Shown: piece by piece, positions 770 through 58,707 of the stretch
How the letters are laid out: each line of letters begins with the position of its first letter
Numbering within the stretch: the stretch's first letter is position 1
Sequence record: PZ386969.1
Length of the DNA stretch: 64,000 nucleotides
Strand: one strand, 5' to 3'
DNA from: a phage
Position numbers and translations under genes: made by a program
Notes under the pieces: generated by a model
Told to the model about the DNA's origin: nothing
Seen by the model: the letters and a program-made list of their open reading frames with translations, nothing else
Databases searched by the model: none

Positions 770-2434
770 TCAGATTTGTGATGCCAGTTCTGCTACCAGA
801 GGAGCGGCGCGGACACGCGCATCTTCCAGTGTTTGAGTATTGAAGAACTCGCCATCACGATACACCAGCTGGTGCTGGTTGTCGGCGTCTTGCACCTGAT
901 CAAAGGTGATACCGTCAACCAACACTAGTTTACCCTGAGAGTCTTTAATGACTTTAAGGAAACCACGCGCAGACTTTTTAGTCCCGCCTTTATCGGTCTT
1001 CGGCTCTTTGAAGATCTCACGGAATTCACCGTTCACCTTACCAGCCGTGGCTTTCACTGCCGTGCCAGTACTGTCGCGGGTGTTCATCTGGTAGGTGTAG
1101 GAACCGATACCGAACACCACGTTGATGGAAGCGAAGTTCCGGCCAGCCAGACGGCTAAAGATCTGGTCTTCACGTGCCAGAGTGATGGAGTCACCGTAGA
1201 TCAGACCGATGTGTTCGTCCAACAGGAAGTGGCCAGTTTCAGTCTGGGTTCCACCAAAGATCTCCCACAGGCGCTGGATAGAGCCGACTGCTTCAGAACG
1301 GCTGATGATATTACGGTCATCTGCCATCAGAGAGTTGATCGTGCCTTCGCCTGTGATCAGGTGATAGGTGTTCGTCTCTTCGATGTGAATAACTTCGGTA
1401 CTGCTAGACACGCCGCTGATGTTCAGCGTGGCACGGTCTTTGAACCCCTCGATGCGGTAGCCGCCGACGATGTGCACAGGGTCGCCCGAGTCGGGGCGAA
1501 TCACGACTTTACCATTGCGCGCCATGATAATGTCTTTCAGGCGAGGTAGATAGTCGTCGATGACCTGCCAGTAATCCCACGCATCAGACACGATACTGAC
1601 GATGCCATCAGGATACACGTCCTGCACTAGGCGGCGGAAGGTTTCGAATTCACCATCCTTCGTGCCCATACACATCACCGCATGTTCCGTTGCGGCAACC
1701 GACCCAGCAACGACATAGTCTTCGTCGATGTCTGCGCCATAATACTCTTCTACGAAGTCCAGGGCAGGGTTGGTGTCGGTGCCTTTGAAGAACACCAGAT
1801 GACCGGAACCGGAAGACGCCGCGTCATGCCATCCGCTCATACCACGGAAGGAGAAGTCGTGGCCTTGGTAGTCGATGAACCAATGGTCTGGTGATACTCC
1901 CGTAGCGAGGGCAGCTTTCACCATCAGTGCCTTGTAATGCAGAGCTATGGTGGCGTTCGTCATCGGCTTCCAGATCTCAGAGCTGAACACAGTCTCCAGA
2001 TAGTTGGTCAGCCAGTAGAACTCCGGCAGGGTATTGAACATCACATACACCGGAACACCATACGGGCACATGGTGCCTTCAGGCAGCGCACGGACTTCGA
2101 TAGGCAGGTAGCCGAGGTCATGCAGGGCTTCAATATGCTCTGTGCCGACGCGGCCTGGACCCAGGACTTTGTTCATGCGACGGGCATACTTCTTCAGCAC
2201 CTTGGCCTTCGGGCACTGGAAGAATGCTTCGTCAAACAGTTCGTGGAACCAGGTCATGAAGCCCTGGATGCCCCAGACCACCACGCCGTTCTTCGGCAGG
2301 TGAGAGTTGAACAGTTTGTTAGAGCGCGGAGTTCCGTTGGAGAACACCAGCTCACTGCCTTCAGGGAACTGATAGATGTGCCCCGATTTGTAGAAGTCGA
2401 TTGCATGGATTGGGTCTAAGTGGCGCATGCTCAT
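770..2434 (-). CDS. nadV: nicotinamide phosphoribosyltransferase family protein (NadV/Nampt-like; candidate Namat)
   Basis: 554-aa ORF with ATG start and AGGA RBS; Nampt-like sequence recognised from memory; ATGA overlap with upstream Prs-like gene. Confidence 0.75.
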   Translation of the reverse strand: MSMRHLDPIHAIDFYKSGHIYQFPEGSELVFSNGTPRSNKLFNSHLPKNGVVVWGIQGFMTWFHELFDEAFFQCPKAKVLKKYARRMNKVLGPGRVGTEHIEALHDLGYLPIEVRALPEGTMCPYGVPVYVMFNTLPEFYWLTNYLETVFSSEIWKPMTNATIALHYKALMVKAALATGVSPDHWFIDYQGHDFSFRGMSGWHDAASSGSGHLVFFKGTDTNPALDFVEEYYGADIDEDYVVAGSVAATEHAVMCMGTKDGEFETFRRLVQDVYPDGIVSIVSDAWDYWQVIDDYLPRLKDIIMARNGKVVIRPDSGDPVHIVGGYRIEGFKDRATLNISGVSSSTEVIHIEETNTYHLITGEGTINSLMADDRNIISRSEAVGSIQRLWEIFGGTQTETGHFLLDEHIGLIYGDSITLAREDQIFSRLAGRNFASINVVFGIGSYTYQMNTRDSTGTAVKATAGKVNGEFREIFKEPKTDKGGTKKSARGFLKVIKDSQGKLVLVDGITFDQVQDADNQHQLVYRDGEFFNTQTLEDARVRAAPLVAELASQI

Positions 2435-3285
2435 TTTACACGTCCTGTATTTTCAGTTTTGAAAGGAAGCCCGTCGGCGGTGATGTTCTCCCACCAGACA
2501 GTGTCGGCATACACAGCATCATAGATCCCGTCGAAAACAGAGAGACCTTTGCTGAAGATGCCATGGGTAACGAAGAGCGTCATGTGCTTAGGCTTGTGCT
2601 TCTGAAGCTCTTTGCCTAACTCAACGAAAGTGCGCCCGCCGTCGCAGATATCATCAACCACAACCAGATAGCGGTCTTTGATCAGTTCAGGGTTCGTAAT
2701 ACTCACCCCAATGATCTCACCAGTCTTGGTGTCACGGTTCTTGTGACCGTAGACAACAGGAACACCGTCCAACGACAGGCTGAGGGCTTCGGTCTTCTTA
2801 GCCGCGCCGCCGTCAGGGGCTACCAACACAGCGTTGTTCCCACGGATGAACCAGCCCAGATACTGACGCACGATGTAATCTTGCGGGACAACATGGACGT
2901 TGTTGATCAGAGAAGACACAACATGGCTGTGAGGATCTTTGATCGCCACGCGGTCAAAGTTCATGCTATTGATGAACTCAGCCGCCCACTTCACAGACAG
3001 AGGCTCACCGAAGTCACAATGGCGGTCCTGGCGAGCATACGGGAAGTAAGGGATATACGCATGGAATGTCGTCAGACGGTCCACGTTACCCAGACCACGA
3101 ACGGCATTAACCAGAAGCGCCAGCTCAATGAAGTCGGCTGATGATTTGATGTGAGCATCAATCACCACGTTCTGAACGTGGCCGATAGGGATACCAGACT
3201 TTTGAATCTTGATATGTTCCTCACCACCTGGGAAGGTGAAGTGTTTGTAGAACACATCTTGGTCGTTCAATTTCAAACGAAACAT
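2431..3285 (-). CDS. ribose-phosphate pyrophosphokinase family protein (Prs-like; candidate ADP-ribose pyrophosphokinase Adps)
   Basis: 284 aa; FPYARQDR signature and VVVDDICDGG phosphoribosyl-binding loop; GAGG RBS. Confidence 0.7.
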   Translation of the reverse strand: MFRLKLNDQDVFYKHFTFPGGEEHIKIQKSGIPIGHVQNVVIDAHIKSSADFIELALLVNAVRGLGNVDRLTTFHAYIPYFPYARQDRHCDFGEPLSVKWAAEFINSMNFDRVAIKDPHSHVVSSLINNVHVVPQDYIVRQYLGWFIRGNNAVLVAPDGGAAKKTEALSLSLDGVPVVYGHKNRDTKTGEIIGVSITNPELIKDRYLVVVDDICDGGRTFVELGKELQKHKPKHMTLFVTHGIFSKGLSVFDGIYDAVYADTVWWENITADGLPFKTENTGRVK

Positions 3286-3634: not shown

Positions 3635-3940
3635 TCACTTAAACGAGTCAACGATGGATGTAAGAATTTCGGGGGTGGGTTTGGCGTCTTGTGGTTCACG
3701 GAAACCCACCTTTGCGATGCGGCCCAAGACATTGTACACTTCGCGCGGAAGGGTGTCTACGACCGTGTCCGACATGAACGCCACGTCTTCTTGGATGGCG
3801 TTGTATTCGGCCAGTTTAGCCAGTTCTGATTCTACCAGGGACTTCAGCTTTTGCAATGGGTCGTTGCAATAGTTGAGACGGTTGCAGTTGGTGAGCGCCT
3901 GAGTTAAATTCTCAAACGCTTCTTGTATTTCCTTTGACAT
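3635..3940 (-). CDS. hypothetical protein
   Basis: ORF in track; start taken at ATG MSKEIQEAF. Confidence 0.35.
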   Translation of the reverse strand: MSKEIQEAFENLTQALTNCNRLNYCNDPLQKLKSLVESELAKLAEYNAIQEDVAFMSDTVVDTLPREVYNVLGRIAKVGFREPQDAKPTPEILTSIVDSFK

Positions 3941-4322
3941 TGATATGTGCCTCGTATTGTTGACAGACAACAACTACTTTACGGCACATGTCGATATCGA
4001 ACAAGCCAATATGACACTCACGCTTCTTTATCCCCAGCTTATGCGCCAGCCAACTGTAAGCGTCGCTCCTGCTCCTCTCTCCGCTTTTCCACAATGGGTC
4101 AAACGATCTATGGGCTTCCTGCTTAGCAGCACGGAGAGCGGCATTCGCCATCCTTCCCAAAGGTTGTCTGCCGTCGCCATGGGCATGGCAACCGACACGG
4201 GCATCACATGGAGTGCATACCCAGAACTTCAGATTGCGGAGGTCAGGGCGATGAGGGTAGAGAACATCACCACCGACGAATTCGGCTGGGAGGCCACAGT
4301 AATCACATATAACAGGTTTCAT
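3912..4322 (-). CDS. zinc-ribbon protein (four-Cys CxxC...CxxC motif)
   Basis: MKPVICDYCG...CTPCDARVGCHAHGD; start at internal ATG 4322; follows a terminator hairpin at 4341-4360. Confidence 0.45.
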   Translation of the reverse strand: MKPVICDYCGLPAEFVGGDVLYPHRPDLRNLKFWVCTPCDARVGCHAHGDGRQPLGRMANAALRAAKQEAHRSFDPLWKSGERSRSDAYSWLAHKLGIKKRECHIGLFDIDMCRKVVVVCQQYEAHINVKGNTRSV

Positions 4323-4340
4323 ATTCTTTGTCCAAAAGAA

Positions 4341-4360
4341 ACCCCGCACATGGCGGGGTT
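4341..4360 (-). terminator. rho-independent terminator
   Basis: Stem CCCCGC/GCGGGG followed by TTTCTTTT on the minus strand. Confidence 0.55.
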
Positions 4361-4382: not shown

Positions 4383-4754
4383 TTATTTCAGGAGTGCTTC
4401 CAGTTCTTCAACAGATTTGCTTTCCAGCTCTTGCTGTTTCTTACGCTGGATCAGCTCCAGGATAACCTGGTTGTTCGCCTTACGCTCTGCCGCTTCTCTG
4501 CTGTCGTCACGTTCTTTCAGCTTAACGCCGATGATGTGCTTGACAACGTCGAAGCGCAGCTGCAGTTCGGAGTCAACGTTGCTTTTGGTACCAATGAAAT
4601 CTTCTTCATCGGTTTCTGCTGCTTTCACCTGACGGCTCAGACCTTTCGCCATTTCGTTCAGGGCAGTCAGGCTCAGGTCCCAGACCTGCTCAACAGACAG
4701 CAGACCTTTGTTAGACTCGAAGCGCAGTTTCATACGGGTTGCTTTATCAAACAT
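4383..4754 (-). CDS. hypothetical protein (charged, predicted helical)
   Basis: ORF in track; followed by terminator hairpin 4341-4360. Confidence 0.45.
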   Translation of the reverse strand: MFDKATRMKLRFESNKGLLSVEQVWDLSLTALNEMAKGLSRQVKAAETDEEDFIGTKSNVDSELQLRFDVVKHIIGVKLKERDDSREAAERKANNQVILELIQRKKQQELESKSVEELEALLK

Positions 4755-4798: not shown

Positions 4799-6817
4799 TT
4801 AGAACACAACTTTCACAGTGCGGTTGAAAGAACCGCTCACCTTCACGAACACGTGGTTGCGTTGGGTGGTAGAGAAGCCCAGACCGGACAGCTGCTCAGT
4901 GCTTGGCTGTACTTTAATCTTACCACCTAACATTTCAAAAACCTTGCGGTGTTTATCAAGTTCCGGCTTCAGATATTCGTTATAGAAACCACGGGTGCCG
5001 ACAGGGTTAGCACAACCTTCCAGGATGAAGAACACGTGCTTGTTGCCAGTCTGCTCGCCGTCCCAATGGTTTGGTGAGTTCAGAACCAGCTGTACCTTCT
5101 GGAAGACGGAGGTCTTGATGCCCCAGATTTCCTGAGAGCGAGCGTCGTCTTTCAGGGTAGAACGGATGTCTACCACTTGTCCAGCGCGGACATCAATCAC
5201 AACAGCCAGAGTGCGATCTTTGTGCTTCAGGCCAGGATGCGAAAAACGCTTGGTCTGGCCTTTGTATTCAACTTCGATTTCGAAGCCCATATCACAGGTT
5301 TCACGCTGGCTGAAGTTAGTGACATAGAACTCGTACAGACCATCACGCAGCTTGCGTTCATCGCTGAAGAAGATGTTCTCCACCGGACGGCGGTTTGGAT
5401 CAATGCCGTCCATACCGTTCATGTCGATGTCTAGAGTTGCGCCAGTTGTCGAACGACGGTTGTGATAATACACGTGGTTGTGAAGAGGATCGTTCAGGCT
5501 CAGATCCAGGTCGTCGTTGTTATGCCAAGCCAGTGACACACGGAGGAAGCTGTCGACATTGCCGCCTGCGGTCTTCACGCGCTCTTTGATGGAGTCGGCC
5601 ACTTCGCCATTGTACGACCAGCTGAAGCCGTTGTTCCACTTGAACAGGTTAGGAGCGCCTGCGGTGGCCGGAGCGATCAGGGACATCAGGTTGCCAATGT
5701 GAGAGTTTTCGACCAGCACTTCCAGGGAATGCGCCTTTGGCAACAAGTTGGTCAGGAAGTCGTCGATCGTGATCTCTTCAACCTTGTCCAGGGACTTGGT
5801 CGGAGTCTTCACTTCAGACGCCAGCTGAGCAAACGGGTCCATCTTCTTCTGAGCTGCCAGATCGGCGAACAGAACGTTGTTGATGGTCAGATCGTCATAC
5901 ACGGCATAACGGCGACCCAGTGAATCAGTCAGACCCAGCGCTTCGACTTCTTTCTGCGCGTTTTCAATCATCGACTTCGTGACCAGCGCGGTTGGGCGCT
6001 TGTAGTTCGTCGGAGCGACTTTGGCTTCAAAGGACTTCACGGCGGTTTCCAGATCCCGGCCTTCATTGAGGTCTACCAGCAGAGAGCCAATCACGGTATT
6101 ACGAATGCCGTGAGGGGTATGACCGTTTGCACGGTAGCCAGTGCGCCAAGCCCACAGAGCGCGTTTCTCTTCTGCAGTTTGTTCGTACAGGGTCTTGTTC
6201 ACCACGAACGCCTGCACTGCCGCTTTGTGCTCTTCACCGCGATACAGAGAATTCTGGTCAATCAATTCCAGAACGATTTCAGCCGATTCCAGAGACAGTT
6301 CACGCAGGCCGCGCTCAAACACTTCAATCGCCTGGCGGATTTCACCCTTCTTAGAAGCGATGGTATCTGCCCGCAGAACATAGCTGCCCAGCAGGTCGGT
6401 GTGGAAGTGGTTGTAGGTGCGGACAATACCATCTTTCATTTCGTGATTCGACTCAACACCAACTTTCTTGGTGTCGTTGAAGTACACGTCGACGATTGCG
6501 TGCTGCTTAACGTATGCTGACAGCGCCGCAGCGACAACGTCGTATTCGTTACCCAACTGAATGTTATCCCAGATAGAGATCACGTTCAGGTCGGAGTCGA
6601 TGGTGACCACACCGCCGATGTTACGGATGAATTGTTTACAGCAGGTGCAGTCGTGCTCGGTACGCTCACGATAAAGCGGGTTAGTGCCAGCAGGGAAAGA
6701 AGACAGATACAGATCCCACAGAGCATCTTTATCGATGTTGGTCATGAACAGACCAGTTGCTGACATGGCCAGCACGTTATTGTTGACAGCTACTGCGAAG
6801 GGCTTAAAATCTGACAT
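4799..6817 (-). CDS. large hypothetical protein (672 aa) with N-terminal Cys cluster
   Basis: ATG start with AGGAAG RBS; HDCTCCKQF motif; no P-loop or other catalytic motif recognised. Confidence 0.6.
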   Translation of the reverse strand: MSDFKPFAVAVNNNVLAMSATGLFMTNIDKDALWDLYLSSFPAGTNPLYRERTEHDCTCCKQFIRNIGGVVTIDSDLNVISIWDNIQLGNEYDVVAAALSAYVKQHAIVDVYFNDTKKVGVESNHEMKDGIVRTYNHFHTDLLGSYVLRADTIASKKGEIRQAIEVFERGLRELSLESAEIVLELIDQNSLYRGEEHKAAVQAFVVNKTLYEQTAEEKRALWAWRTGYRANGHTPHGIRNTVIGSLLVDLNEGRDLETAVKSFEAKVAPTNYKRPTALVTKSMIENAQKEVEALGLTDSLGRRYAVYDDLTINNVLFADLAAQKKMDPFAQLASEVKTPTKSLDKVEEITIDDFLTNLLPKAHSLEVLVENSHIGNLMSLIAPATAGAPNLFKWNNGFSWSYNGEVADSIKERVKTAGGNVDSFLRVSLAWHNNDDLDLSLNDPLHNHVYYHNRRSTTGATLDIDMNGMDGIDPNRRPVENIFFSDERKLRDGLYEFYVTNFSQRETCDMGFEIEVEYKGQTKRFSHPGLKHKDRTLAVVIDVRAGQVVDIRSTLKDDARSQEIWGIKTSVFQKVQLVLNSPNHWDGEQTGNKHVFFILEGCANPVGTRGFYNEYLKPELDKHRKVFEMLGGKIKVQPSTEQLSGLGFSTTQRNHVFVKVSGSFNRTVKVVF

Positions 6818-6847
6818 GATGTAATCTTCCTGTTTCAGTTCAAATGT

Positions 6848-6868
6848 GCGCCCCGTTTGCCAGGGCGC
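6848..6868 (-). terminator. terminator-like hairpin
   Basis: Stem GCGCCC/GGGCGC; weak U-tract. Confidence 0.35.
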
Positions 6869-6931
6869 TTCGTTTAAGTGAGGTTAATATACGCTGGATT
6901 GAGTTATTGAAGAACGAAGTAAAGGGAATCT

Positions 6932-8155
6932 TTATTCAGGTTTCTTCAAACGGTCCAGCAAATTGACGGAACCACGTTTGAGCACGACTTCATCACAACG
7001 TTGCTTATACGCACTACCATTCCCGTCATACCCCACCTTTCCTCGAGGTTTCTCCCCGCGCATCACTGCCTCAACACAGCGGGTATATTTCTGAAGTTCA
7101 CAGAACATGTTCTCCAGCTGCATAACATTCATGCAACGATCTTCCGGTTCTTCTGCCGACCAAAATTCATTACGTTTATACCCATACTGAGCGAACAATT
7201 GATCTTGATGATCACGAACCCAGAATATGCATTCTTCATGCGTCATGCCGTCCTTGTCCAAAAATAACAGATCGATACCAGCACGGCAACCTGGACCAGC
7301 GATAGTGAAGTGGTTTTCACTGAATGGATATTCATCGATGTATGTAAAATCAACCCAAATCTGGTATGCCAAGAATGGTCCAAGCCCCTCAATGTCGTCA
7401 TACATCGCCTGGTAAACAGAGTCGGGACGGCTAAATTCCCTGAGGCGATCAAAGTAATGAGGGTGTTTGTTGACGAATGCCTTCAGGGAGCGGATGACAC
7501 GCATTGGCATGTACGGTTCCCAACCTTCGATGGTGTAGAAGTCCGGCTCTGCTTCAGCGATGGCCTTGGCTTCCTTGTAATCCATGTTCTGGGTTGAACC
7601 GTCTTTACAGATCAGATTCACCATCATCCCACCGAAGCGCTGCTCCTTGTGGTTGACAACTAGTTCGGGGAAAGCCAGGCATTGTTTCAGACCGCCTGTA
7701 TTAAACGCATTGGTGAAAACTTTGCCACCTTTAGATTCGAATTCCTGAAGAACACTTCGACACCATTCAAGATTTATGTTTCCGAATTCTTCGATCGTCC
7801 ATGGACCACCCAAAGCCTGTATAGGTTCCCACATGTTGTACATGCGGAACAATACACAGTTGAACATTTTGTCAGATAGCGTGAGATCCTGATTGAGGAT
7901 GATATTATTGATCAAATTTCGAGACTGTCTATCGTGCTCTCTCCGCACGTTACAAAACTTGACTTGGCGTAATACCGGATTATCCGTCCATGGCGCTGGA
8001 AGGCATTGCACGTCCTTCTTGACATGTATCGCATAACGATCCCTCATCCATTCATATGCCAGCTGACGGTGGAATGAACTTAACATAGGATGGGCTGATT
8101 TGATTTTGGTTTCACGGACACCGCAATATGGGATGTCATATGGTTTATCTTTCAT
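6932..8155 (-). CDS. hypothetical protein (407 aa)
   Basis: ATG start with AGAGGA RBS; flanked by terminator hairpins 6848-6868 and 8179-8199; function not recognised. Confidence 0.6.
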   Translation of the reverse strand: MKDKPYDIPYCGVRETKIKSAHPMLSSFHRQLAYEWMRDRYAIHVKKDVQCLPAPWTDNPVLRQVKFCNVRREHDRQSRNLINNIILNQDLTLSDKMFNCVLFRMYNMWEPIQALGGPWTIEEFGNINLEWCRSVLQEFESKGGKVFTNAFNTGGLKQCLAFPELVVNHKEQRFGGMMVNLICKDGSTQNMDYKEAKAIAEAEPDFYTIEGWEPYMPMRVIRSLKAFVNKHPHYFDRLREFSRPDSVYQAMYDDIEGLGPFLAYQIWVDFTYIDEYPFSENHFTIAGPGCRAGIDLLFLDKDGMTHEECIFWVRDHQDQLFAQYGYKRNEFWSAEEPEDRCMNVMQLENMFCELQKYTRCVEAVMRGEKPRGKVGYDGNGSAYKQRCDEVVLKRGSVNLLDRLKKPE

Positions 8156-8223: not shown

Positions 8224-9096
8224 TTAATCGATACGGGTCAGTTGGGTGATAGATGATTGCACTGGGCTGGCCACATAGATACGGACGTTGGCTTTCCATT
8301 CACCCCAGATCAACGGTAGAGTTGGGAAGTTGTCTTCATTGAAAACAAACACGGGAATGTAGCTCTCGACTGTTTCGCCAGAGAACGCCTGGAAGCCCAT
8401 CTTGGTGTATCCCATGATCTCGTCAATAAAATCGAACGGAGCGAAGGCAACACCAGCGTGTTCGTTAGAGCCGAGCTGGCCTGGAATGGCCGTACCCGTC
8501 AGAATGATTTCAGTGATCTGGCGCTTAGGCTCGGCAGTCAGCATATCAGAGAAGTCAGGCTCTTTGAAGGTTGCCATGTTCTTCAGGAACTTGCCAGCCG
8601 GGTATTCTTTGCCGTCGACGGTGATGGTGTCTACCACTTTGATGCACGCCTGAGGGAATTCCCCTTCGATGCGCAGACTTTCGCGTGGGAAGCCTTTGTT
8701 GTAGTAGTAATCCAGTGCAGGCACAACTTCACCTTCATTGCGAATGAACTTGCTCATGTTAGACGCATACACGCGCTGTAGGCATTCGTCGCCGTCGAAA
8801 CCAGCAATATGAGCCAAACCGTCGTTGACTGTTGTGATGTCGCCCTGGGCATCCATGATCTGGCGCATGATGCCTTTGATGTCCACAACGGCAGGTTCTT
8901 TCAGGACTCGTGGAGTTGCAGTGAATTCCACCTTCACATCATGGTCAAAGAACACCGCTTCCAGCAGTTCGCGGGTCTCTTCCAGCACCAGTTTCGCCTG
9001 ATTGCGGATCTTACCAAAGTCAGGCGATGTGACGTCGCCCTTTGCATTACCGAAAGCCAGATTCAGATTCACGTTCTTAGAAAATGTAGTTGTCAT
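8224..9096 (-). CDS. hypothetical protein; N-terminal segment weakly resembles MazG/HisE-type pyrophosphohydrolase helices
   Basis: 290 aa; LVLEETRELLEAV segment; GGAG RBS; weak call. Confidence 0.45.
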   Translation of the reverse strand: MTTTFSKNVNLNLAFGNAKGDVTSPDFGKIRNQAKLVLEETRELLEAVFFDHDVKVEFTATPRVLKEPAVVDIKGIMRQIMDAQGDITTVNDGLAHIAGFDGDECLQRVYASNMSKFIRNEGEVVPALDYYYNKGFPRESLRIEGEFPQACIKVVDTITVDGKEYPAGKFLKNMATFKEPDFSDMLTAEPKRQITEIILTGTAIPGQLGSNEHAGVAFAPFDFIDEIMGYTKMGFQAFSGETVESYIPVFVFNEDNFPTLPLIWGEWKANVRIYVASPVQSSITQLTRID

Positions 9097-9606: not shown

Positions 9607-10029
9607 CTACTTAGCCTTGCGCGGTTTCGCTTTGGCGTTCAGCTCAGTGCGTCTCATCTTCTCGCGTATTTCGGCCAGGACTTCCTTCGGCAAGAAACGG
9701 ACGTACTCGGATGCCTTCTCCATGCTGATGTAGAAGTACTCGGAGAGTAACTTCACGTCAGGATCAATCGGACCTTTCTTAGACCATTTGTCGTAGCGTT
9801 TCCGCGCCGGAATGGTGTGAAAGGCATATGACCATTGCATCCATGGAGTAACAGCATGCAGTTTGTTCATCTGCTGAGCGGTCACTAGAGTGTCTTTGCT
9901 CTGAGCTAAACCACGCCGCGTCATAAACGGGTCGAATCCTTTCAACACTTCTGGGTCATCAGTCCGCAGAAGGTTTTCTTTGCTGCTGTTCAGAGCAGAC
10001 AGGTAATCGAACAATCCAAGGGCGGCCAT
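9607..10029 (-). CDS. gp62: clamp loader small subunit (gp62-like)
   Basis: TIPARKRYDKWSKK resembles T4 gp62 AVPRGKRYGKWAKL; position between gp44 and regA as in T4. Confidence 0.7.
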   Translation of the reverse strand: MAALGLFDYLSALNSSKENLLRTDDPEVLKGFDPFMTRRGLAQSKDTLVTAQQMNKLHAVTPWMQWSYAFHTIPARKRYDKWSKKGPIDPDVKLLSEYFYISMEKASEYVRFLPKEVLAEIREKMRRTELNAKAKPRKAK

Positions 10030-10033: not shown

Positions 10034-11023
10034 TCACTTCCACTTGATGTTGAGCATGACGTTGGTCAGGAAATACACAGCATGCAGCCAGACATCGCCG
10101 ACCTGACGGTGTTCAATCTGAGACTGACCACACACGCATACCAGATCAGGGATAGACTCATTCTGAACCAACATTTGCTTCTCTTTATCCTGTGGTACAC
10201 AGAACTGGAAGAAGCGGGAATAGAAGTCTTCAGTGATATAGTTCTGGTTGTCGGTCACCCACTGCTTCATCCCAGCCCAGTCATTATCCTTCAACATATT
10301 CACCAACATGCCCATATCGGCCGATTTTAACACAGCCAGTGCACGTTCGTCGATCTTGCCGTAAGTGGTGACGTTATCCTGTAGAACACCCATGATGCGG
10401 CGGTTATCAGGGAAATGGCGCTTGACAATAGCAGCCAACACAGGAGGGTCATACTCAACACCTTCGCAGCGAAGGATTTCAGCACAGCGGCGCATGAACT
10501 GAAGTTTTACCTCATCAGCCTCAGCCTCATTCCAGATAAAGTCGATTTCACGGCAACGAGAGCGCAGAGGTTCGTTCACACGTTGCTTGGCGTTGGTGGT
10601 CAGGATGAATGAACAGTTCTTGGAGACCTTCTCCACAATACCCTTCAGCGACTCCTGTGCCGCCATAGACAGACGCTCTACTTCGTCGAGGATAACGACT
10701 TTGCGACCACCGAATACGCTCACACCAGTAGAGTACTGAATCACGCGGTCACGGATAACGTCGATGCTGTTGTCCAGGGATGCGTTGATCATCAGTGGTT
10801 GCTTACAACCGATTTCATTACACACGGCCAGGGCGGAGGTAGTCTTGCCAGTACCAGGCTGAGGGGAGTAGAACAGCATAGACGGGATGTTGCCGTTGCC
10901 GCTGGTGATGTAGCCATGGATTTTAGCGCGGACGTCTTGAGGGATGATAATCTCGTCCAGGTTGTCAGGGCGGTACTTGTTTTCCCATGCGTACTGGTCG
11001 GAAACGATAGTGATATTAGACAT
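10034..11023 (-). CDS. gp44: clamp loader large subunit (gp44-like AAA+ ATPase)
   Basis: ENKYRP and SPQPGTGKTT Walker A match T4 gp44; start moved from track alternative start (11080) to ATG MSNITIV with GAGG RBS. Confidence 0.85.
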   Translation of the reverse strand: MSNITIVSDQYAWENKYRPDNLDEIIIPQDVRAKIHGYITSGNGNIPSMLFYSPQPGTGKTTSALAVCNEIGCKQPLMINASLDNSIDVIRDRVIQYSTGVSVFGGRKVVILDEVERLSMAAQESLKGIVEKVSKNCSFILTTNAKQRVNEPLRSRCREIDFIWNEAEADEVKLQFMRRCAEILRCEGVEYDPPVLAAIVKRHFPDNRRIMGVLQDNVTTYGKIDERALAVLKSADMGMLVNMLKDNDWAGMKQWVTDNQNYITEDFYSRFFQFCVPQDKEKQMLVQNESIPDLVCVCGQSQIEHRQVGDVWLHAVYFLTNVMLNIKWK

Positions 11024-11103
11024 TTCAGCCTCGTGTAGAAGAATCATTTCAAATAGGCGGGGAACGCCCCGCCCACACATTATAGCATCAGGCTGGAGAT
11101 TGA

Positions 11104-11772
11104 TTACTCAATCTGTGCGCCGACGAAGTAATTGATCGTCGCGTCGGATGATTGGAAGTTCACCATCTGTAGATCAGCACAGGCACGCAGAGTGTAGTTG
11201 CCTTCGATCATTTTCAGGTTGGCAACATCCAGCGGCATTACGAAGTCCGGCAGCGCGGTTTCGCCCAGCTCAACAGTGTAGTTGTTGGAGTTGTCCAGGG
11301 TAGTGGTGGTTGCAACCAGGCGAGTTTTGCCACCCTGAGCAACCAGGCGCACAGTCTTGTGTCCGAGGGTAGAACAGGCGCGGGTCAGTTCTTTCATCTT
11401 CTCTGGAGTGATGATCGCTTCAAAGTCGACAGACGGCAGTTCAATGGTGTCAGCCGGAACAACAGTGAGTTCTTTAGCAGAACGCCAGAATTGCAGCTGA
11501 GAGTTTTCGCCTTTCAACAGGATGTAGTCCTGATGGAATTCGGCTTTACCACCTTTGAAGGAAGGCAGGCGCTGGATGGCCAGAAGTTTGGTCAGGTCCA
11601 GGATAGGGAACTCAAACGGGAAGTCTTCTTCGATCTGTGCCACGGCGATAACAGTAGACGAATCGTTAATGCTGCGCAGCATCTTACCCGGTGTCAGGAC
11701 GATAGATGGGTTGATGGTCTCAAAGTTGGCCAGCAACTGAAGTGTACGTTCGGAGAGAGTGATCTCTTGCAT
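11104..11772 (-). CDS. gp45: sliding clamp (gp45-like)
   Basis: N-terminus LQLLANFETINPS resembles T4 gp45 ALLKNFATINSG; 222 aa; GAGGATA RBS. Confidence 0.8.
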   Translation of the reverse strand: MQEITLSERTLQLLANFETINPSIVLTPGKMLRSINDSSTVIAVAQIEEDFPFEFPILDLTKLLAIQRLPSFKGGKAEFHQDYILLKGENSQLQFWRSAKELTVVPADTIELPSVDFEAIITPEKMKELTRACSTLGHKTVRLVAQGGKTRLVATTTTLDNSNNYTVELGETALPDFVMPLDVANLKMIEGNYTLRACADLQMVNFQSSDATINYFVGAQIE

Positions 11773-32590: not shown

Positions 32591-33286
32591 TCAATCTCCA
32601 GGATGATGTACACCGTCTTTGTCAACACGGAACCACTCTGGCAGTTCCGTCCACGGTGTTTTCAAATCATTAGACATTTCGATAATTATCTCTTTGATCC
32701 CGTTAGGATCCCCACCTCCACCGTTGTCCACCCAATAGTCATACCCGTAGATGAAGCCACTCAGCTGGAACATGAAGGAGCAGTCGACGTGTGGTGAATC
32801 AGAAGCATCCCCTTCCCAGTTATCGGACATCTGGTGGCTAACCAGTTGGATCTTGATCTTCTGGTCTTGCTGTAGTGTATCGTTGTCCTTGATACCACAG
32901 TCTAGAGAGGGAGTGAATACCGAATAAACCTGCTCTAGCACCTGTAACATCTCAACCAATTTCTTGGTTCGGATATTGTACTCAAAATCGATAATCAGGG
33001 GGATTCGCTGCTTCGCCCCTGCTGTTGGTGTCGATTGTCGATTGTGGTACGTCTTCGTCACCTGTTTGTTGATCTCAAACTGACCAAAAGAGAAAGTCGC
33101 AAATGGAAGCATGTTGGACGGCACGTTCCTGTTGAGGTCATTGCGTCTCCCGATGGCCATGTGTAATGGGACTTCCATAAGTCCACGCTCTGTGTTCACC
33201 TTCAGGTCAGACATAATGGTGGCAAACAGATTGATGTATTTCATCAATGAATCATGGTAGAAGTAATTTTCAAATGGTCTGGCCAT
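32591..33286 (-). CDS. tail sheath stabiliser / tail completion protein (gp15 position)
   Basis: Synteny between gp14 and terS; weak resemblance to T4 gp15. Confidence 0.5.
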   Translation of the reverse strand: MARPFENYFYHDSLMKYINLFATIMSDLKVNTERGLMEVPLHMAIGRRNDLNRNVPSNMLPFATFSFGQFEINKQVTKTYHNRQSTPTAGAKQRIPLIIDFEYNIRTKKLVEMLQVLEQVYSVFTPSLDCGIKDNDTLQQDQKIKIQLVSHQMSDNWEGDASDSPHVDCSFMFQLSGFIYGYDYWVDNGGGGDPNGIKEIIIEMSNDLKTPWTELPEWFRVDKDGVHHPGD

Positions 33287-33288
33287 GA

Positions 33289-33939
33289 TTATTCTCCAAA
33301 GTCGATCTTCATCTTGTCTGTTGCAAGTCCCTTCTCAAGAACATCTGCTAAAGCATTGTCGGTCTGTAGAGAAGAATCCTTGTACACGTCCGGTTCGTTC
33401 TCTTCGTCCAAGATGGACAGACGTTTGTCGATATCGTCGATCTCCGGAACGCCCGTATCGAAGTTTTCGTTGCCGTACTGGAACAACGTGCACGGTAGAG
33501 AGAACGTATACCATTTGCCAAATTGCATGAAGTCTTCATCGTTGTTCGGGTTGTTGACCTTGAAGATCTTGTTCGCCAGTGGTAGATAGATCAGGTCACC
33601 TTCCTGAGGTTGTTGTTCAAACCCAACACCGTTGCCTATCACCTCAGCAAATCGGCGGCGCGAGATAGAGAACGTCACTTCGTCTTGCAATTGGATACCC
33701 CCAAACTTCTCCCACATCTGGGTGTTGAAGCCCTGGTAATCCTGCATGTATGCTTCGATGTCGAACGCCTGGTCGAATCTGTGGTTAGCATCGTTGGTGA
33801 TAGGAAATTTTTCAACGATGGAACGGGGTATATACTTGATGTCTATCCCGCGCAACTCAATCATTTCCTGTACCAAATCTTCAATCAGCTTCTGTGTGCC
33901 TTGGTGATTGGTGGCGTTGAAATATTTAGAAGTGGCCAT
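33289..33939 (-). CDS. neck protein (gp14 position)
   Basis: Synteny; late motif GACTAAATACC about 25 nt upstream. Confidence 0.5.
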   Translation of the reverse strand: MATSKYFNATNHQGTQKLIEDLVQEMIELRGIDIKYIPRSIVEKFPITNDANHRFDQAFDIEAYMQDYQGFNTQMWEKFGGIQLQDEVTFSISRRRFAEVIGNGVGFEQQPQEGDLIYLPLANKIFKVNNPNNDEDFMQFGKWYTFSLPCTLFQYGNENFDTGVPEIDDIDKRLSILDEENEPDVYKDSSLQTDNALADVLEKGLATDKMKIDFGE

Positions 33940-40439: not shown

Positions 40440-40481
40440 TTTGATGCTCCATCGATAGGTGCCATTATAGAGATATTTAGT

Positions 40482-40492
40482 ATACAACCAAC
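40482..40492 (-). promoter_or_regulatory. late promoter motif ACTAAATATCT upstream of giant structural gene
   Basis: Motif about 45 nt before ATG 40439. Confidence 0.45.
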
Positions 40493-40643
40493 CGAGGAAT
40501 AGAAAGAAATAAGCCCGAAGGGGCTTTGATTATCTTTCTGTGGTTATGGTCATGGATTCGAGACCTCTGCCATTCATGGTAGATGGTATTCAATTAGGTA
40601 TGTTTAATATATCAGGTCAGACTATTACCTTAACTGCTGTATC

Positions 40644-40681
40644 GATTAGGGTAATGCAAACAGTAAACTCTATATAAAAAG
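40644..40681. repeat. 3'-flank repeat shared by tailspike cassettes (copy 1)
   Basis: AGGGTAATGCAAACAGTAAACTCTATATAA aligns with 45503-45535. Confidence 0.55.
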
Positions 40682-40696
40682 TATTATTAATAAGTA

Positions 40697-40727
40697 AAAA
40701 CAACCCCATAGAAGTGGGGTTGTTTTT
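40697..40727 (-). terminator. terminator after tailspike 1
   Basis: Stem CAACCCCA/TGGGGTTG followed by T5. Confidence 0.6.
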
Positions 40728-40740
40728 AAGTGATTATTAC

Positions 40741-42657: not shown

Positions 42658-42681
42658 AACGACCTCTTTGTTTTTCTAAGA

Positions 42682-42705
42682 AACCCCGCCGAAGCGGGGT
42701 TAGTT
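42682..42705 (-). terminator. terminator after tailspike 2
   Basis: AACCCCGCCGAAGCGGGGTT, same sequence as at 19981 and 27703. Confidence 0.6.
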
Positions 42706-45210: not shown

Positions 45211-45216
45211 TTGAAG

Positions 45217-45253: not shown

Positions 45254-45290
45254 TCTGAACTAATAAATTTATGAACAAAGGTATAACAAG

Positions 45291-45314: not shown

Positions 45315-45318
45315 ACTC

Positions 45319-57513: not shown

Positions 57514-58707
57514 ATGAACAAGACCATCTTCGATACCCTTTCCCTCGACCGCAACCTGGTCCATTGGGAAGATTATCTCTACAAGCACACCCCGTGCGAA
57601 CTTGTCGTCAACCCCGAAACCAACCAGCAGGTCTGGTTCAAGCGTGAAGATTATTTTGCGCCGCTGTCTAACTATGCCAACGCCAAGCAGGGCATCAATG
57701 GCAGCAAACTCCGCCAGGCCATCTGGTTGATGGTTGAGCACCTCAAGGCCGGAGGCTCCCCTGACATCATCCATGGTACTGTCGTTGGTAGTCCGCAGTC
57801 CCCTATGGCGACAGCAGTCTCTCGGCACTTCGGCGGCAAGACAACCACTGTACTCGGAGCGACCAAACCCACCACCTGTATGAACCACGACATGGTGGCA
57901 ATGTCAGCCTGGTTTGGTAGTGAGTTCAACTTCGTCGGCTCGGGTTACAACAGCACGATCCAGCCGCGCTGTAAGAAGTTGATCGAACAACAGAATCCAA
58001 AGGCGTATTATCTGGAGTATGGTATCACCCTCGACCATACAACCCACTCCCCTGAGCGCATTGCTGGGTTCCATATGCTGGGTGGCGAGCAGGTTGCCAA
58101 CATCCCTGACCATATTACCGATCTGATTATCCCTGCTGGATCCTGCAACTCGTGCACAAGCATCCTGACCGGGCTGGCAATGCATCCGAAGCCTAATCTG
58201 AAGCGTGTGTATCTGATCGGCATCGGTCCGAACCGCCTGGACTTCATTGAGAGCCGTCTGCGCATCATCGGCAAACATGCCAATCTACCGCACATTGTCG
58301 ACTTCACCCGTCGCTATCACGACAACCCAGACTATGTACACGGCAAGAAGGAGCTTCAGCATGCCTCTAAGAGCGTTTCGCTGGCTGGCCTCCTGAGTGG
58401 TATCAGGCAGAAGGAAGAGCCAGAGGTCGTGCTTCCTCGCTTTGAGGTACACCATTGGGATCTTCATACCACTAATTGGGTTCGTTATAATGACCTGATG
58501 GAATATCAGTGGGGTGATATTGAGTTGCATCCTCGCTATGAAGGCAAGGTCATGACCTGGGTTCAGCAACACAAGCCCGAGTTGCTCAATGAGAACACTC
58601 TGTTCTGGATTGTGGGTAGCAAGCCGTACATTGAGCCAATGAAGGCTGCATGCCCTGAACTGGCTATCCCTGAAACAGTTCCTGTAAACGACTTCACCCC
58701 TTCCTGA
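57514..58707 (+). CDS. PLP-dependent enzyme, fold type II (ACC deaminase / D-cysteine desulfhydrase family)
   Basis: TPCELV...FKREDY...NGSKLRQ (PLP-lysine region) and IIPAGSCNSCTSILTGL Gly-rich loop align with E. coli DcyD motifs KRDD, GGNKLRK, VVASGSAGTHAGL. Confidence 0.7.
   Translation: MNKTIFDTLSLDRNLVHWEDYLYKHTPCELVVNPETNQQVWFKREDYFAPLSNYANAKQGINGSKLRQAIWLMVEHLKAGGSPDIIHGTVVGSPQSPMATAVSRHFGGKTTTVLGATKPTTCMNHDMVAMSAWFGSEFNFVGSGYNSTIQPRCKKLIEQQNPKAYYLEYGITLDHTTHSPERIAGFHMLGGEQVANIPDHITDLIIPAGSCNSCTSILTGLAMHPKPNLKRVYLIGIGPNRLDFIESRLRIIGKHANLPHIVDFTRRYHDNPDYVHGKKELQHASKSVSLAGLLSGIRQKEEPEVVLPRFEVHHWDLHTTNWVRYNDLMEYQWGDIELHPRYEGKVMTWVQQHKPELLNENTLFWIVGSKPYIEPMKAACPELAIPETVPVNDFTPS

What the first reader, a model, noticed from the sequence alone, without database searches (positions are those of the whole stretch)
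4799..8155. Two large unknown proteins between the NAD+ module and the replication genes
The 672-aa and 407-aa proteins each have an RBS-supported ATG and flanking terminators, so they are probably independently expressed. Neither shows a P-loop, nuclease, methyltransferase or polymerase motif that I can recognise; the larger has an N-terminal Cys cluster (HDCTCCKQF). Their size and neighbourhood make them candidates for anti-defence or DNA-modification functions.
Basis: inference. Interest (0 to 1): 0.5.

Follow-up and report, generated by a model that had tools for sequence, protein, structure and literature searches.

The report
DNA-modification enzyme plus unknown two-gene cassette
Of the two "unknown" phage proteins, the smaller belongs to a known family from the pathway that chemically decorates thymine in the phage's DNA and seems to ride on the replication clamp, while the larger is half of a very widespread two-gene unit whose function nobody has worked out.

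Summary
Both ORFs exist exactly as described. The window comes from a ViI-like (Ackermannviridae) phage.

**407-aa protein: not unknown.**
- It is the orthologue of Salmonella phage ViI gp160 (79% identity). It matches Pfam HMUDK_hel, also called aGPT-Pplase clade 1, at E 2e-83.
- This family belongs to the thymidine-hypermodification gene set. Its own reaction has never been assigned.
- It keeps PUGT's catalytic Glu-x3-Cys dyad.
- It ends in a disordered tail with the same short motif as the phage's own DNA polymerase, serine:DNA transferase and kinase 2. This motif co-varies across three lineages, which suggests tethering to the sliding clamp.
- My preferred reading is a clamp-tethered enzyme that resolves kinase-activated 5-hmdU. 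It may carry out the still-unassigned conversion of 5-hmdU to thymidine.

**672-aa protein: still unknown.**
- It belongs to a very large uncharacterised family (PHROG 1735).
- It contains a TerD-like beta-sandwich domain.
- A homologous ~125-140-aa partner gene accompanies it in 157 of 160 phage and bacterial loci, directly downstream in all but a few. The other three loci have no room for one.

It was wrong that both proteins are unknown and that the larger one is expressed on its own.

The parts
6932..8155 (-). Gene for the 407-aa protein. It is the orthologue of Salmonella phage ViI gp160 (Vi01_130c) and belongs to family HMUDK_hel, also called aGPT-Pplase clade 1.
7100..7114 (-). Codons for E348-N-M-F-C352, the candidate catalytic Glu-x3-Cys dyad of the 407-aa protein.
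   Evidence: E348, N349, C352, E353 and K356 are invariant in 30 homologues down to 43% identity. The only local hhalign match between this family and PUGT pairs DRCMNVMQLENMFCELQ with DRPVNIQEVETILCKWK. That puts E348 on E243 and C352 on C247. E243 and C247 are the PUGT residues mutated in PMC11472151; the corresponding conserved Cys and neighbouring Glu are essential in M6 gp51 and ViI gp247 (PMC8989533).
6947..6970 (-). Codons for S396-VNLLDR-L403, a C-terminal short linear motif in a disordered tail. Proposed sliding-clamp-binding peptide.
   Evidence: pLDDT is below 50 for residues 384-407. The same motif ends ViI DNA polymerase, gp247 (ADDT) and gp243 (HMUD2), and occurs in only 5 of 1232 six-frame ORFs of ViI. 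The orthologous proteins co-vary: K[RK]LW in Vibrio phage D509 and S[VL]xD[ILF]F(G) in metagenomic contig L173.
8177..8201 (-). Intrinsic-terminator-like hairpin between the MazG-like gene and the 407-aa gene.
   Evidence: 11-bp stem followed by a T-run.
4799..6817 (-). Gene for the 672-aa protein. It is the first gene of a conserved two-gene cassette (PHROG 1735; precomputed Pfam PF26675; equals ViI orf158 and CBA120 gp119).
   Evidence: PHROG 1735 at 1013 bits over the full length. More than 5484 homologues, and 4726 representatives at 50% clustering. AF2 pLDDT 82.5. Every named member is 'hypothetical', apart from a few unsupported 'RNA polymerase' labels.
6629..6655 (-). It lies inside the most conserved N-terminal motif, FPxGTNPxFRERTEHDCxCCKxFIR.
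   Evidence: E51, R52, E54, D56, C57, C60 and R65 are invariant in 32 sequences. C57 and C60 are at least 90% conserved in 58 more diverse sequences. The region is a low-confidence loop (pLDDT ~62).
5138..5560 (-). TerD-like beta-sandwich domain of the 672-aa protein (about residues 420-560).
4383..4754 (-). Gene for a 123-aa partner protein (PHROG 2018), the second gene of the cassette.
   Evidence: It starts 44 nt after the 672-aa stop with no flagged terminator between them. It is homologous to the gene directly downstream of the large gene in phiCbK, Pokken (N4-like) and Bacillus phage PBC6, with BLASTP E-values of 1e-17 to 1e-21 against the window protein. A partner is present on the same strand in 79 of 80 viral loci and 78 of 80 genome loci; the three loci without one have no room.
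4340..4360 (-). Intrinsic-terminator-like hairpin that closes the 672-aa + 123-aa operon.
   Evidence: 8-bp stem with 6 GC pairs, then a T-run.
11104..11772 (-). Context: T4/RB69-type sliding clamp (gp45 homologue), the proposed docking partner of the 407-aa protein's tail.
   Evidence: phmmer against PDB: RB69 clamp 1b77/1b8h E 5e-13 and T4 gp45 1czd E 3e-11, over the full length. The clamp-loader genes alongside it (10034-11080 and 9607-10029) are confirmed by Pfam.
57520..58701 (+). Context: orthologue of ViI gp226, the PLP-dependent decarboxylase that turns O-serinyl-T into 5-NeOmdU. It shows that the hypermodification pathway is encoded in this genome.
   Evidence: tblastn with ViI gp226 gives 92% identity. 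Weak Pfam PALP hit. Function taken from PMC8989533.

Best explanation
The interval holds two functionally unrelated things.

**(A) 6932-8155(-): the 407-aa protein.**
- It is the orthologue of phage ViI gp160, the 'aGPT-Pplase clade 1 / HMUDK_hel' protein of the Ackermannviridae thymidine-hypermodification gene set. (Shown.)
- It has a helix-hairpin-helix DNA-glycosylase-like fold. Its nearest solved relatives are QNG1 and the 5-PmdU glycinyltransferase PUGT. (Shown.)
- It conserves a Glu-x3-Cys dyad that lines up with PUGT's catalytic E243/C247. (Shown at motif level only.)
- It ends in a disordered tail carrying the same short motif as the phage's family-B DNA polymerase, its serine:DNA transferase (gp247/ADDT) and its second 5-hmdU DNA kinase (gp243/HMUD2). 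This motif changes in concert in three lineages. (Shown.)
- Inferred mechanism: the tail docks the enzyme on the gp45-type sliding clamp behind the fork. The enzyme flips out kinase-activated 5-hmdU (5-PmdU) in new DNA. Cys352 adds to C6, phosphate leaves to give the exocyclic C5-methylene, and the methylene is resolved by something other than serine.
- My favoured resolution is reduction to thymidine. That is the step of this pathway for which no enzyme is known. I hold this at about 0.3. A second group transfer is the main alternative.

**(B) 4799-6817(-) plus 4383-4754(-): the 672-aa protein and its partner.**
- These two genes form an operon. (Shown from gene spacing, terminator positions and the pairing found in 157 of 160 loci.)
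- The cassette moves as a self-contained unit among unrelated lytic phages and also resides in bacterial chromosomes. (Shown.)
- The large protein has novel N- and C-terminal domains rich in invariant polar residues, plus a TerD-like, probably Ca2+-binding, beta-sandwich. (Fold shown; Ca2+ binding inferred.)
- Its function is not established. I commit, at low confidence, to an enzyme with a helical adaptor subunit that acts on a universally conserved cellular component. It is not part of the hmU pathway.
For: **For (A):**
- Family and orthology: Pfam HMUDK_hel at 280 bits; 79% full-length identity and synteny with ViI gp160.
- gp160 was one of five ViI proteins that together rebuilt 5-NeOmdU in lysates, and was described there as the paralogue of gp247 with a DNA-glycosylase fold (PMC5889632).
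- Dyad: E348 and C352 are invariant, and the only hhalign match to PUGT falls on its E243/C247 motif. The conserved Cys and neighbouring Glu are essential in M6 gp51 and ViI gp247, PUGT's homologues.
- Tail: pLDDT below 50 for residues 384-407. The motif is found in 5 of 1232 ViI ORFs, including polymerase, gp160, gp247 and gp243.
- Independent replicates: K[RK]LW ends exactly the four orthologous proteins among 299 ORFs in Vibrio phage D509. S[VL]xD[ILF]F(G) ends HMUD2, ADDT and HMUDK_hel in contig L173, next to its clamp-loader genes and a 227-aa ORF in the sliding-clamp position.
- Clamp precedent: in T4, gp43, gp55 and gp33 use interchangeable C-terminal clamp-binding motifs after divergent linkers (PMC2988020). 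An RB69/T4-type clamp is encoded 3 kb away.
- The siphovirus homologues PaMx11 gp46 and gp50 are about 115 residues shorter and do not end in any of these motifs. Whether those phages encode a clamp was not checked here.
- Thymidine idea: 'How 5-hmdU is converted to thymidine ... is still unknown'. M6 gp51 + 5-PmdU + borohydride gives thymidine. The M6 homologue gp55 was dispensable for glycinyl-T formation, and only gp247 was reported as the necessary transferase in ViI.

**For (B):**
- Partner pairing in 79/80 and 78/80 loci, with no third conserved neighbour.
- Terminator only after the partner gene.
- 28 invariant positions across 58 sequences at 39-48% identity to the window protein.
- About 31 actinobacterial (Micromonosporaceae-type) loci carry copies 75-98% identical to one another, with near-host GC and ordinary neighbours.
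Against: **Against (A):**
- No activity of gp160 or any HMUDK_hel protein has been reported in the papers I could read.
- The alignment of the dyad to PUGT is short and not significant on its own (23 columns, E 0.13). I could not inspect the structural superposition.
- No reductant- or cofactor-binding domain is evident.
- SP10 is listed with no second PPlase-type protein; its HMUDK_hel domain (gp186C) is the only one tabulated. This argues that the family can be a group transferase rather than a reductase (Table 3 of PMC5889632).
- Clamp binding is inferred from motif sharing and the T4 precedent, not measured. The shared partner could be another replisome protein.
- ViI gp67 (kinase 1) and gp226 (decarboxylase) lack the tail.

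**Against (B):**
- Nothing indicates what the substrate is.
- There is no Pfam TerD match, and the Ca2+ ligands were not aligned residue by residue.
- The inter-domain arrangement is uncertain (pTM 0.49).
- Physical interaction between the two cassette proteins is inferred from gene linkage alone.
Confidence: 0.5

Rival explanations
1. The 407-aa protein is a second group transferase like gp247. It acts on 5-PmdU but uses a different donor or works in a different sequence context. It would make a minor or still-undetected modification, or add to 5-NeOmdU levels, rather than make thymidine.
Against: Only one hypermodified base, 5-NeOmdU, is reported for ViI and CBA120. gp247 alone carried out the serine transfer with purified components. 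The M6 homologue gp55 was dispensable for glycinyl-T formation. There is no Pfam ADDT match, even at E <= 1.
Confidence: 0.3
2. The 407-aa protein is a non-catalytic DNA- or hmU-recognition module, as the Pfam name 'kinase helical domain' implies. It would help the 5-hmdU DNA kinases find or hold their substrate, or set the sequence specificity of modification.
For: In SP10 the domain is fused to the P-loop kinase. In PaMx11 and M6 the homologue (gp50, gp55) is encoded directly next to the kinase gene. No activity has ever been assigned to it.
Against: A Cys/Glu dyad and many polar residues are invariant across 43-100% identity. The kinase domain of SP10 gp186 is active without the domain. ViI kinases gp67 and gp243 phosphorylate 5-hmdU DNA on their own. 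The protein also has its own clamp-type tail, like the catalytic enzymes.
Confidence: 0.1
3. The 672-aa + 123-aa cassette is a counter-defence or host-takeover module that lytic phages carry against a widespread bacterial function. One possibility is that its TerD-like domain interferes with Ter/TerD-type stress or phage-inhibition systems.
For: It is spread across unrelated virulent phages: Ackermannviridae, phiCbK, phiRSL1, N4-like and Herelleviridae. It lies among non-structural, mostly hypothetical genes in the three phages examined. It moves as a self-contained two-gene unit. It contains a TerD-like fold. That ter operons inhibit phage is my own recollection and was not tested.
Against: The same pair sits stably in about 31 actinobacterial (Micromonosporaceae-type) loci and in other bacterial chromosomes, with host-like GC and ordinary neighbours. 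That is unexpected for a purely anti-host weapon. Identity of 40-50% across phages of Firmicutes and Proteobacteria suggests a conserved enzymatic job rather than an arms-race protein. No experiment bears on the question.
Confidence: 0.2
4. The 672-aa + 123-aa cassette is itself a cellular stress or defence (exclusion) module that phages have borrowed. It would work the same way in bacteria and in phage-infected cells.
For: It is present in bacterial chromosomes from many phyla. Its flanks are variable even among actinobacterial loci whose large proteins are 75-98% identical, as for mobile accessory modules. Two-gene architecture is common among defence systems.
Against: No PADLOC match. Its neighbours in actinomycetes are transporters, two-component systems and reductases, not defence islands. 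It was found in 558 phage records, 273 of them ViI-like at the DNA level, which suggests a core phage function.
Confidence: 0.15

Closest known systems
Salmonella phage ViI gp160 (Vi01_130c, YP_004327501); Pfam PF18723 HMUDK_hel, also called aGPT-Pplase clade 1
   Same: 79% identical over the full length, with the same length (407 aa) and the same neighbours: the MazG-like gene upstream and orf158 downstream. The Pfam match is far above the cut-off. It has the same C-terminal motif...KRGSVNLLDRLKKPE.
   Different: Nothing of substance; it is an orthologue in a different genus (the closest genomes are Agtrevirus-like). The family's reaction is itself unassigned. gp160 was present in the five-lysate reconstitution but was never shown to be necessary.
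PUGT (PaMx11 gp46, PDB 8Z2M/8Z2N) and ViI gp247; Pfam PF18724 ADDT, also called aGPT-Pplase clade 2. These are amino acid:DNA transferases acting on 5-PmdU.
   Different: Only 9% identity. No Pfam ADDT hit, and no profile-level similarity outside the 23-residue motif. There is an extra inserted beta-hairpin region at about residues 160-215. No donor substrate is known.
T4/RB69 clamp-binding C-terminal peptides of gp43, gp55 and gp33. An analogy from memory: the PIP box of DNMT1, which binds PCNA.
   Same: A short hydrophobic motif at the extreme C-terminus after a variable, unstructured linker. It is shared between the polymerase and other clamp clients (PMC2988020). Here the polymerase is family B and the clamp is RB69/T4-like. 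The L173 lineage motif...SLNDFFG / ...SVLDLF, looks like the T4-type hydrophobic-acidic motif. That resemblance is from memory.
   Different: The clients here are DNA base-modifying enzymes, which I did not find described as clamp clients in the searchable literature. Binding has not been measured.
TerD family (Klebsiella TerD, PDB 2KXT; Streptomyces SCO6318, PDB 2QZ7)
PHROG 1735 + PHROG 2018, both listed as 'unknown function'
   Same: Full-length matches at 1013 and 162 bits.
   Different: These are only clusters with no function. Their obligate pairing and their presence in bacterial chromosomes were established here.

Membership tests
HMUDK_hel / aGPT-Pplase clade 1 (PF18723) | Profile match above Pfam's gathering score, covering the domain | tested here: met
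   280.2 bits against a cut-off of 25; residues 31-363 on profile positions 5-278 of 281.
HMUDK_hel / aGPT-Pplase clade 1 (PF18723) | Orthology with the reference protein ViI gp160, by sequence and gene order | tested here: met
   79% identity over residues 1-407. Same flanking genes in ViI and Gloob. The gp numbering was mapped through the 'orf00NNN' notes.
HMUDK_hel / aGPT-Pplase clade 1 (PF18723) | HhH DNA-glycosylase-like fold, as predicted in the literature | tested here: met
HMUDK_hel / aGPT-Pplase clade 1 (PF18723) | The same genome encodes the 5-hmdU pathway (dUMP hydroxymethylase, 5-hmdU DNA kinase, ADDT, tailoring enzyme) | tested here: inconclusive
   Only the gp226-type PLP decarboxylase lies inside the window (92% identity). 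The kinases, ADDT and thyA homologue are outside the 64 kb. They are present in ViI, D509 and L173, and the literature reports them as conserved across the family.
HMUDK_hel / aGPT-Pplase clade 1 (PF18723) | A defined enzymatic activity | not testable with these tools
   None is reported for any member in the papers I read.
ADDT / aGPT-Pplase clade 2 (PF18724) amino acid:DNA transferases | Pfam ADDT profile match | tested here: not met
   No ADDT hit at E <= 1. The same scan detects ViI gp247 and D509_0195 at 1e-58 and 1e-44.
ADDT / aGPT-Pplase clade 2 (PF18724) amino acid:DNA transferases | Essential active-site Cys with a nearby Glu (PUGT C247/E243) | tested here: inconclusive
   E348-x3-C352 is invariant and is the only segment hhalign aligns to PUGT. 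The alignment is 23 columns at E 0.13, and I could not inspect the structural superposition.
ADDT / aGPT-Pplase clade 2 (PF18724) amino acid:DNA transferases | Structural similarity to the solved member PUGT (8Z2M) | tested here: met
T4-type sliding-clamp clients (C-terminal clamp-binding peptide) | A short hydrophobic motif at the extreme C-terminus after a variable, unstructured linker | tested here: met
   pLDDT below 50 for residues 384-407. The linker varies in length and sequence while the terminal motif is conserved within each lineage. The criterion is taken from PMC2988020.
T4-type sliding-clamp clients (C-terminal clamp-binding peptide) | The cognate replicative polymerase carries the same motif, and the phage encodes a gp45-type clamp | tested here: met
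   ViI polymerase ends ...RRVNLLSMMGKKG. D509 polymerase ends ...KKARKLW, like its HMUDK_hel, ADDT and HMUD2. Both polymerases are family B. The window's clamp matches RB69 and T4 gp45. The window's own polymerase C-terminus lies outside the 64 kb.
T4-type sliding-clamp clients (C-terminal clamp-binding peptide) | Physical binding to the clamp | not testable with these tools
There is no experimental data.
TerD family (for the 672-aa protein) | TerD beta-sandwich fold | tested here: met
TerD family (for the 672-aa protein) | Pfam TerD sequence signature, including the Ca2+-binding acidic motifs | tested here: not met
   No TerD hit in the window protein or in any of 58 family members at E <= 1. 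Invariant D/E/N residues exist in the domain but were not mapped onto TerD's Ca2+ ligands.
Known anti-phage defence / candidate defence proteins (PADLOC-DB 2.0) | Profile match to any model | tested here: not met
   No hits for either protein at E <= 0.1.
PARP-like proteins (a weak lead for the 672-aa protein) | Consistent zf-PARP / PARP_reg / catalytic-domain matches across the family | tested here: not met

The most novel reading that the evidence does not exclude
In T4-like-replisome phages with hypermodified thymine, three DNA base-modifying enzymes carry the polymerase's own clamp-binding tail: kinase HMUD2, the amino acid:DNA transferase ADDT, and the HMUDK_hel protein studied here. Together they would form a clamp-tethered modification machine working directly behind the fork. 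Within it, the HMUDK_hel/gp160 family would be the enzyme sought since the early 1980s that converts the non-targeted, activated 5-hmdU residues to ordinary thymidine.

Separately, the 672-aa + 123-aa pair would be a new, very widespread two-component system shared by phages and bacteria.
Probability: 0.25. Interest if true: 0.8.

Novelty: new member of a known kind. Interest (0 to 1): 0.55.

Why it matters
**For the 407-aa protein.** Thymidine hypermodification is a major way for phages to evade restriction, and it is a source of DNA-modifying enzymes for biotechnology. Two gaps remain.
- No role has been assigned to the clade-1 Pplase / HMUDK_hel proteins. They accompany the pathway in ViI, M6, PaMx11 and SP10, and ΦW-14 gp72 is tabulated beside them.
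- The enzyme that turns the remaining 5-hmdU into thymidine is unknown (PMC5889632).

The conserved Glu-x3-Cys dyad and the polymerase-like tail turn both gaps into direct experiments. They also suggest how modification is coupled to replication, much as eukaryotic maintenance methylation is coupled to PCNA.

**For the 672-aa protein.** The family has thousands of representatives, 40-50% identity across phages of distant hosts, an obligate partner gene, and copies in bacterial chromosomes. It is among the larger blocks of conserved phage sequence with no known function. Knowing that it is a two-gene unit tells experimenters what to clone together.

Tried and rejected
- **Library searches.** NCBIfam and PADLOC gave nothing for either protein. 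Sequence searches of the PDB, with single sequences and with profiles, also gave nothing.
- **hhalign of the gp160 family against ViI gp247** aligned only the C-terminal tail. That is what led me to the tail observation.
- **'Putative DNA-directed RNA polymerase'.** Some GenBank records give the 672-aa protein this label. None of my searches supports it, so I rejected it.
- **PinA peptidase-inhibitor hit** (E 0.17). I treated it as noise.
- **Link to the neighbouring NAD+ genes.** I rejected a functional link for the 672-aa gene. ViI has the cassette without those genes, the review reports that their presence varies, and no neighbour other than the small partner is conserved.
- **Link between the two large genes.** I rejected this too. 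They are adjacent only in the Ackermannviridae loci (12 of 80 viral loci).
- **Two 'kinase + HhH enzyme' gene pairs.** This idea is only partly borne out. D509_0191, next to the gp160 homologue, is not gp67-like.
- **Literature.** PF26675, the precomputed Pfam accession for the 672-aa family, is absent from my Pfam copy and from the searchable papers. Iyer et al. 2013 and the EcoSal review were not available.

Full report
**What is there.** Both start with ATG preceded by a Shine-Dalgarno-like sequence. The 'HDCTCCKQF' cluster is at residues 55-63 of the larger protein.

At the DNA level the region is 97.8% identical to Enterobacter phage fGh-Ecl02. It is 80-92% identical to many Agtrevirus and Kuttervirus phages, with 273 matching records. 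The window therefore comes from a ViI-like phage of the family Ackermannviridae. Gene order around the finding matches Shigella phage Gloob and Salmonella phage ViI. In order, the genes are a NAMPT-like gene, a PRPP-synthetase-like gene, small genes, the 123-aa gene, the 672-aa gene, the 407-aa gene, a MazG-like gene, RegA, the clamp loader and the clamp.

**The 407-aa protein is a known family member.**
- It matches Pfam PF18723 (HMUDK_hel, '5-hmdU DNA kinase, helical domain') at E 2.4e-83.
- ViI gene products in the New England Biolabs papers are numbered after the 'orf00NNN' notes of the ViI record. gp226 is YP_004327553/orf00226 and gp243 is YP_004327565/orf00243. So gp160 is orf00160, which is Vi01_130c, a 407-aa protein in the syntenic position.
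- tblastn of ViI gp160 against the window gives 79% identity over residues 1-407.
- Lee et al. 2018 list gp160 as an 'aG/PT-PPlase' with a predicted DNA-glycosylase fold and as the paralogue of gp247. It was one of five recombinant ViI lysates that together rebuilt 5-(2-aminoethoxy)methyl-dU from 5-hmdU DNA.
- Lee et al. 2021 then assigned the chemistry. gp67 and gp243 are 5-hmdU DNA kinases, gp247 is the serine:DNA transferase, and gp226 is the PLP decarboxylase. gp160 was left without a role.
- One GenBank record already labels the orthologue 'Pplase1 ... clade 1', and one phage paper uses 'aGPT-Pplase1'.
- The gp226 orthologue lies in the window at 57520-58701. The kinases and gp247 fall outside the 64 kb.

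**What I could add about the 407-aa protein.**

*Catalytic motif.* In the family alignment E348, N349, C352, E353 and K356 are invariant, as is a GPGC hairpin. Profile comparison with PUGT aligns a single segment: DRCMNVMQLENMFCELQ against DRPVNIQEVETILCKWK. That places E348 on E243 and C352 on C247. In the clade-2 enzymes, mutating the conserved Cys or the nearby Glu to alanine abolishes activity in M6 gp51 and ViI gp247, and PUGT C247 and E243 are that pair. The alignment is short (E 0.13), so I count it as supportive rather than proven.

*Distribution.* PaMx11 gp50, encoded right after the kinase gp49, is also an HMUDK_hel homologue (hhalign probability 98.5%) and has the same E-x3-C-E-x2-K-Y motif. 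So the family accompanies the kinase in siphoviruses too. M6 gp55, which Table 3 of Lee et al. 2018 lists as a second PPlase-type protein of M6, was dispensable for glycinyl-T formation in vitro.

**A polymerase-like tail that co-varies.** The only part of ViI gp247 that aligned to the gp160 family was the extreme C-terminus. Listing the C-termini of ViI proteins gave the following:
- gp160: ...KRGSVNLLDRLKKPE
- gp247: ...KSTSVNLMSLLKR
- gp243: ...KTSSVSLLGLMRKA
- the family-B DNA polymerase: ...KRRVNLLSMMGKKG

A regular expression for this motif in the last 14 residues hits 5 of 1232 six-frame ORFs (>= 50 aa) in the whole ViI genome. The five are those four proteins and a 70-aa protein, Vi01_049c. 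In the window it hits the 407-aa ORF and one 112-aa ORF at 33251-33589(+) that I did not examine.

In distant gp160 homologues the tail differs by lineage, which allowed two independent checks.
- In Vibrio phage D509, the HMUDK_hel, ADDT, HMUD2 and DNA polymerase proteins all end in K[RK]LW. They are the only 4 of 299 ORFs in that 50-kb stretch to do so.
- In a metagenomic contig (L173), HMUD2, ADDT and HMUDK_hel end in ...NNVFDIFGA...HSLNDFFG and ...KSVLDLF. The genes lie beside the contig's clamp-loader genes and a 227-aa ORF in the sliding-clamp position.

In T4, the polymerase, gp55 and gp33 bind the gp45 clamp through interchangeable short C-terminal motifs that follow divergent, unstructured linkers. 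The RB69 clamp was crystallised with the polymerase's last 11 residues (PMC2988020). The window encodes an RB69/T4-type clamp 3 kb away. The siphovirus homologues PaMx11 gp46 and gp50 are about 115 residues shorter and end differently.

I therefore infer that kinase 2, the transferase and the 407-aa protein are clamp clients. [quoted passage not shown] I found no description of this in the searchable literature.

**Most likely mechanism for the 407-aa protein.**
- Shown: family, fold, conserved dyad, shared co-varying tail.
- Inferred: the enzyme is tethered to the clamp, flips out kinase-activated 5-hmdU, and uses Cys352 to add to C6. The phosphate then leaves and an exocyclic methylene forms, as proposed for the clade-2 enzymes.
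- What resolves the methylene is open. I favour reduction to thymidine, at about 0.3, for three reasons. [quoted passage not shown] The clade-2 enzyme already yields thymidine when borohydride is supplied. And this family is the pathway-associated protein with no assigned job.
- The main rival is a second group transfer. SP10 supports that rival, because its HMUDK_hel domain is the only Pplase-type protein tabulated for it.
- A purely non-catalytic role seems unlikely given the invariant dyad.

**The 672-aa protein.**

*Family.* It matches PHROG 1735 over its full length but nothing in my Pfam copy, NCBIfam, PADLOC or the PDB sequences. The family is very large: more than 5484 hits in the 90%-clustered database and 4726 representatives at 50% clustering, most about 670 aa long.

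*Distribution.* It occurs in Ackermannviridae, phiCbK, phiRSL1, N4-like phages, Bacillus Herelleviridae, Cellulophaga phages and others. It is nearly always annotated as hypothetical. ViI's own record splits it into two CDS, Vi01_128c and Vi01_129c.

**It is half of a two-gene cassette.**
- In phiCbK, the N4-like phage Pokken and Bacillus phage PBC6, the gene directly downstream encodes a 129-140-aa protein. These are homologous to each other and to the window's 123-aa ORF at 4383..4754, with BLASTP E-values of 1e-17 to 1e-21 against the window protein.
- An HMM of this partner finds it on the same strand in 79 of 80 IMG/VR loci and 78 of 80 loci from bacterial and archaeal genomes. It lies downstream of the large gene in all but one of them. 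The three exceptions have too little sequence downstream.
- No third gene family is conserved around the pair in either set.
- In the window the partner starts 44 nt after the large gene's stop, and the only flagged terminator follows the partner. The 672-aa gene is therefore not an isolated unit.
- The cellular copies include about 31 actinobacterial (Micromonosporaceae-type) loci that are 75-98% identical to one another. Their GC content is 65% against 69.5% in the flanks, and their neighbours are ordinary chromosomal genes. Myxobacteria, Bradyrhizobium, Sericytochromatia and Clostridia also carry copies.
- The cassette is linked neither to gp160 nor to the NAD+ genes.

I cannot name its function. 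My low-confidence commitment is an enzyme with a helical adaptor subunit that acts on a universal cellular component and has a Ca2+-binding TerD-like module. Counter-defence and borrowed cellular stress or defence roles are the rivals.

**Verdict.** One protein belongs to a known but biochemically unassigned DNA-hypermodification family, for which I add a catalytic-motif argument and a clamp-tethering argument. The other is a member of a ubiquitous uncharacterised family, and its genetic unit is now defined as two genes. The report contains no experimental result.

Noticed in passing
window 770-3285 (-): The 'NAD+ module' next to the finding is a NAMPT/NAPRTase-family protein (554 aa) plus a ribose-phosphate-pyrophosphokinase-like protein (284 aa). 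From memory, this pairing resembles the phage NAD+-reconstitution pathway NARP1, which counters NAD-depleting defences. ViI lacks these genes at this position, and a review reports that their presence varies among Agtrevirus phages.
   Followed up: partly
ViI genome: L005 356-568 (Vi01_049c); also ViI DNA polymerase, gp243 and gp247: A 70-aa ViI protein of unknown function (PHROG 4789) ends in ...DKVNLLSLMRK. This is the same tail as the polymerase and the hypermodification enzymes, so it may be another small clamp client. The ViI protein annotated as gp33 does not carry the motif.
   Followed up: partly
L002 10301-12320 (ViI Vi01_128c/129c): In the ViI reference record, the orthologue of the 672-aa gene is split into two overlapping CDS of 183 and 491 aa. 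The break lies inside the TerD-like domain. It is either a frameshift or a sequencing error, because other Kuttervirus genomes have the intact gene. PHROGs 23228 and 25920 seem to be artefacts of such splits.
   Followed up: partly
window 8224-9096 (-): The 290-aa protein directly upstream of the gp160 orthologue matches the PHROG 'MazG-like pyrophosphatase' (437 bits) but no Pfam family. It is a candidate dTTP/dUTP-clearing enzyme of the hmU pathway. It is only 59% identical to its ViI counterpart, against 79% for gp160.
   Followed up: no
L091 117147-128878 (Vibrio phage D509) and L173 7050-14311: In the Vibrio and marine relatives the hypermodification genes (thyA-like, HMUDK_hel, ADDT, HMUD2) are clustered. 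In D509 they lie next to the DNA polymerase gene. In L173 they lie next to the clamp-loader genes and a 227-aa ORF in the sliding-clamp position. In ViI the same genes are scattered.
   Followed up: partly
L123 6131-7405 and two other bacterial loci: An RtcB-type RNA ligase gene, recognised by eye from its sequence motifs, lies immediately upstream of the 672-aa homologue in 3 non-actinobacterial loci. This is too few to call an association, but it is a possible hint towards RNA repair.
   Followed up: no
window 40001-48000: GC content drops to 0.42-0.43 here, against about 0.49-0.52 elsewhere, and the GC skew is strongly negative. By synteny with ViI this should be the tail-spike and tail-fibre region, which is probably exchanged horizontally.
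   Followed up: no
window 3912-4349 (-): A DUF3268 zinc-finger-containing protein (E 2.6e-37) lies just downstream of the cassette's terminator. It is conserved at this position in ViI (Vi01_126c) and Gloob.
   Followed up: no
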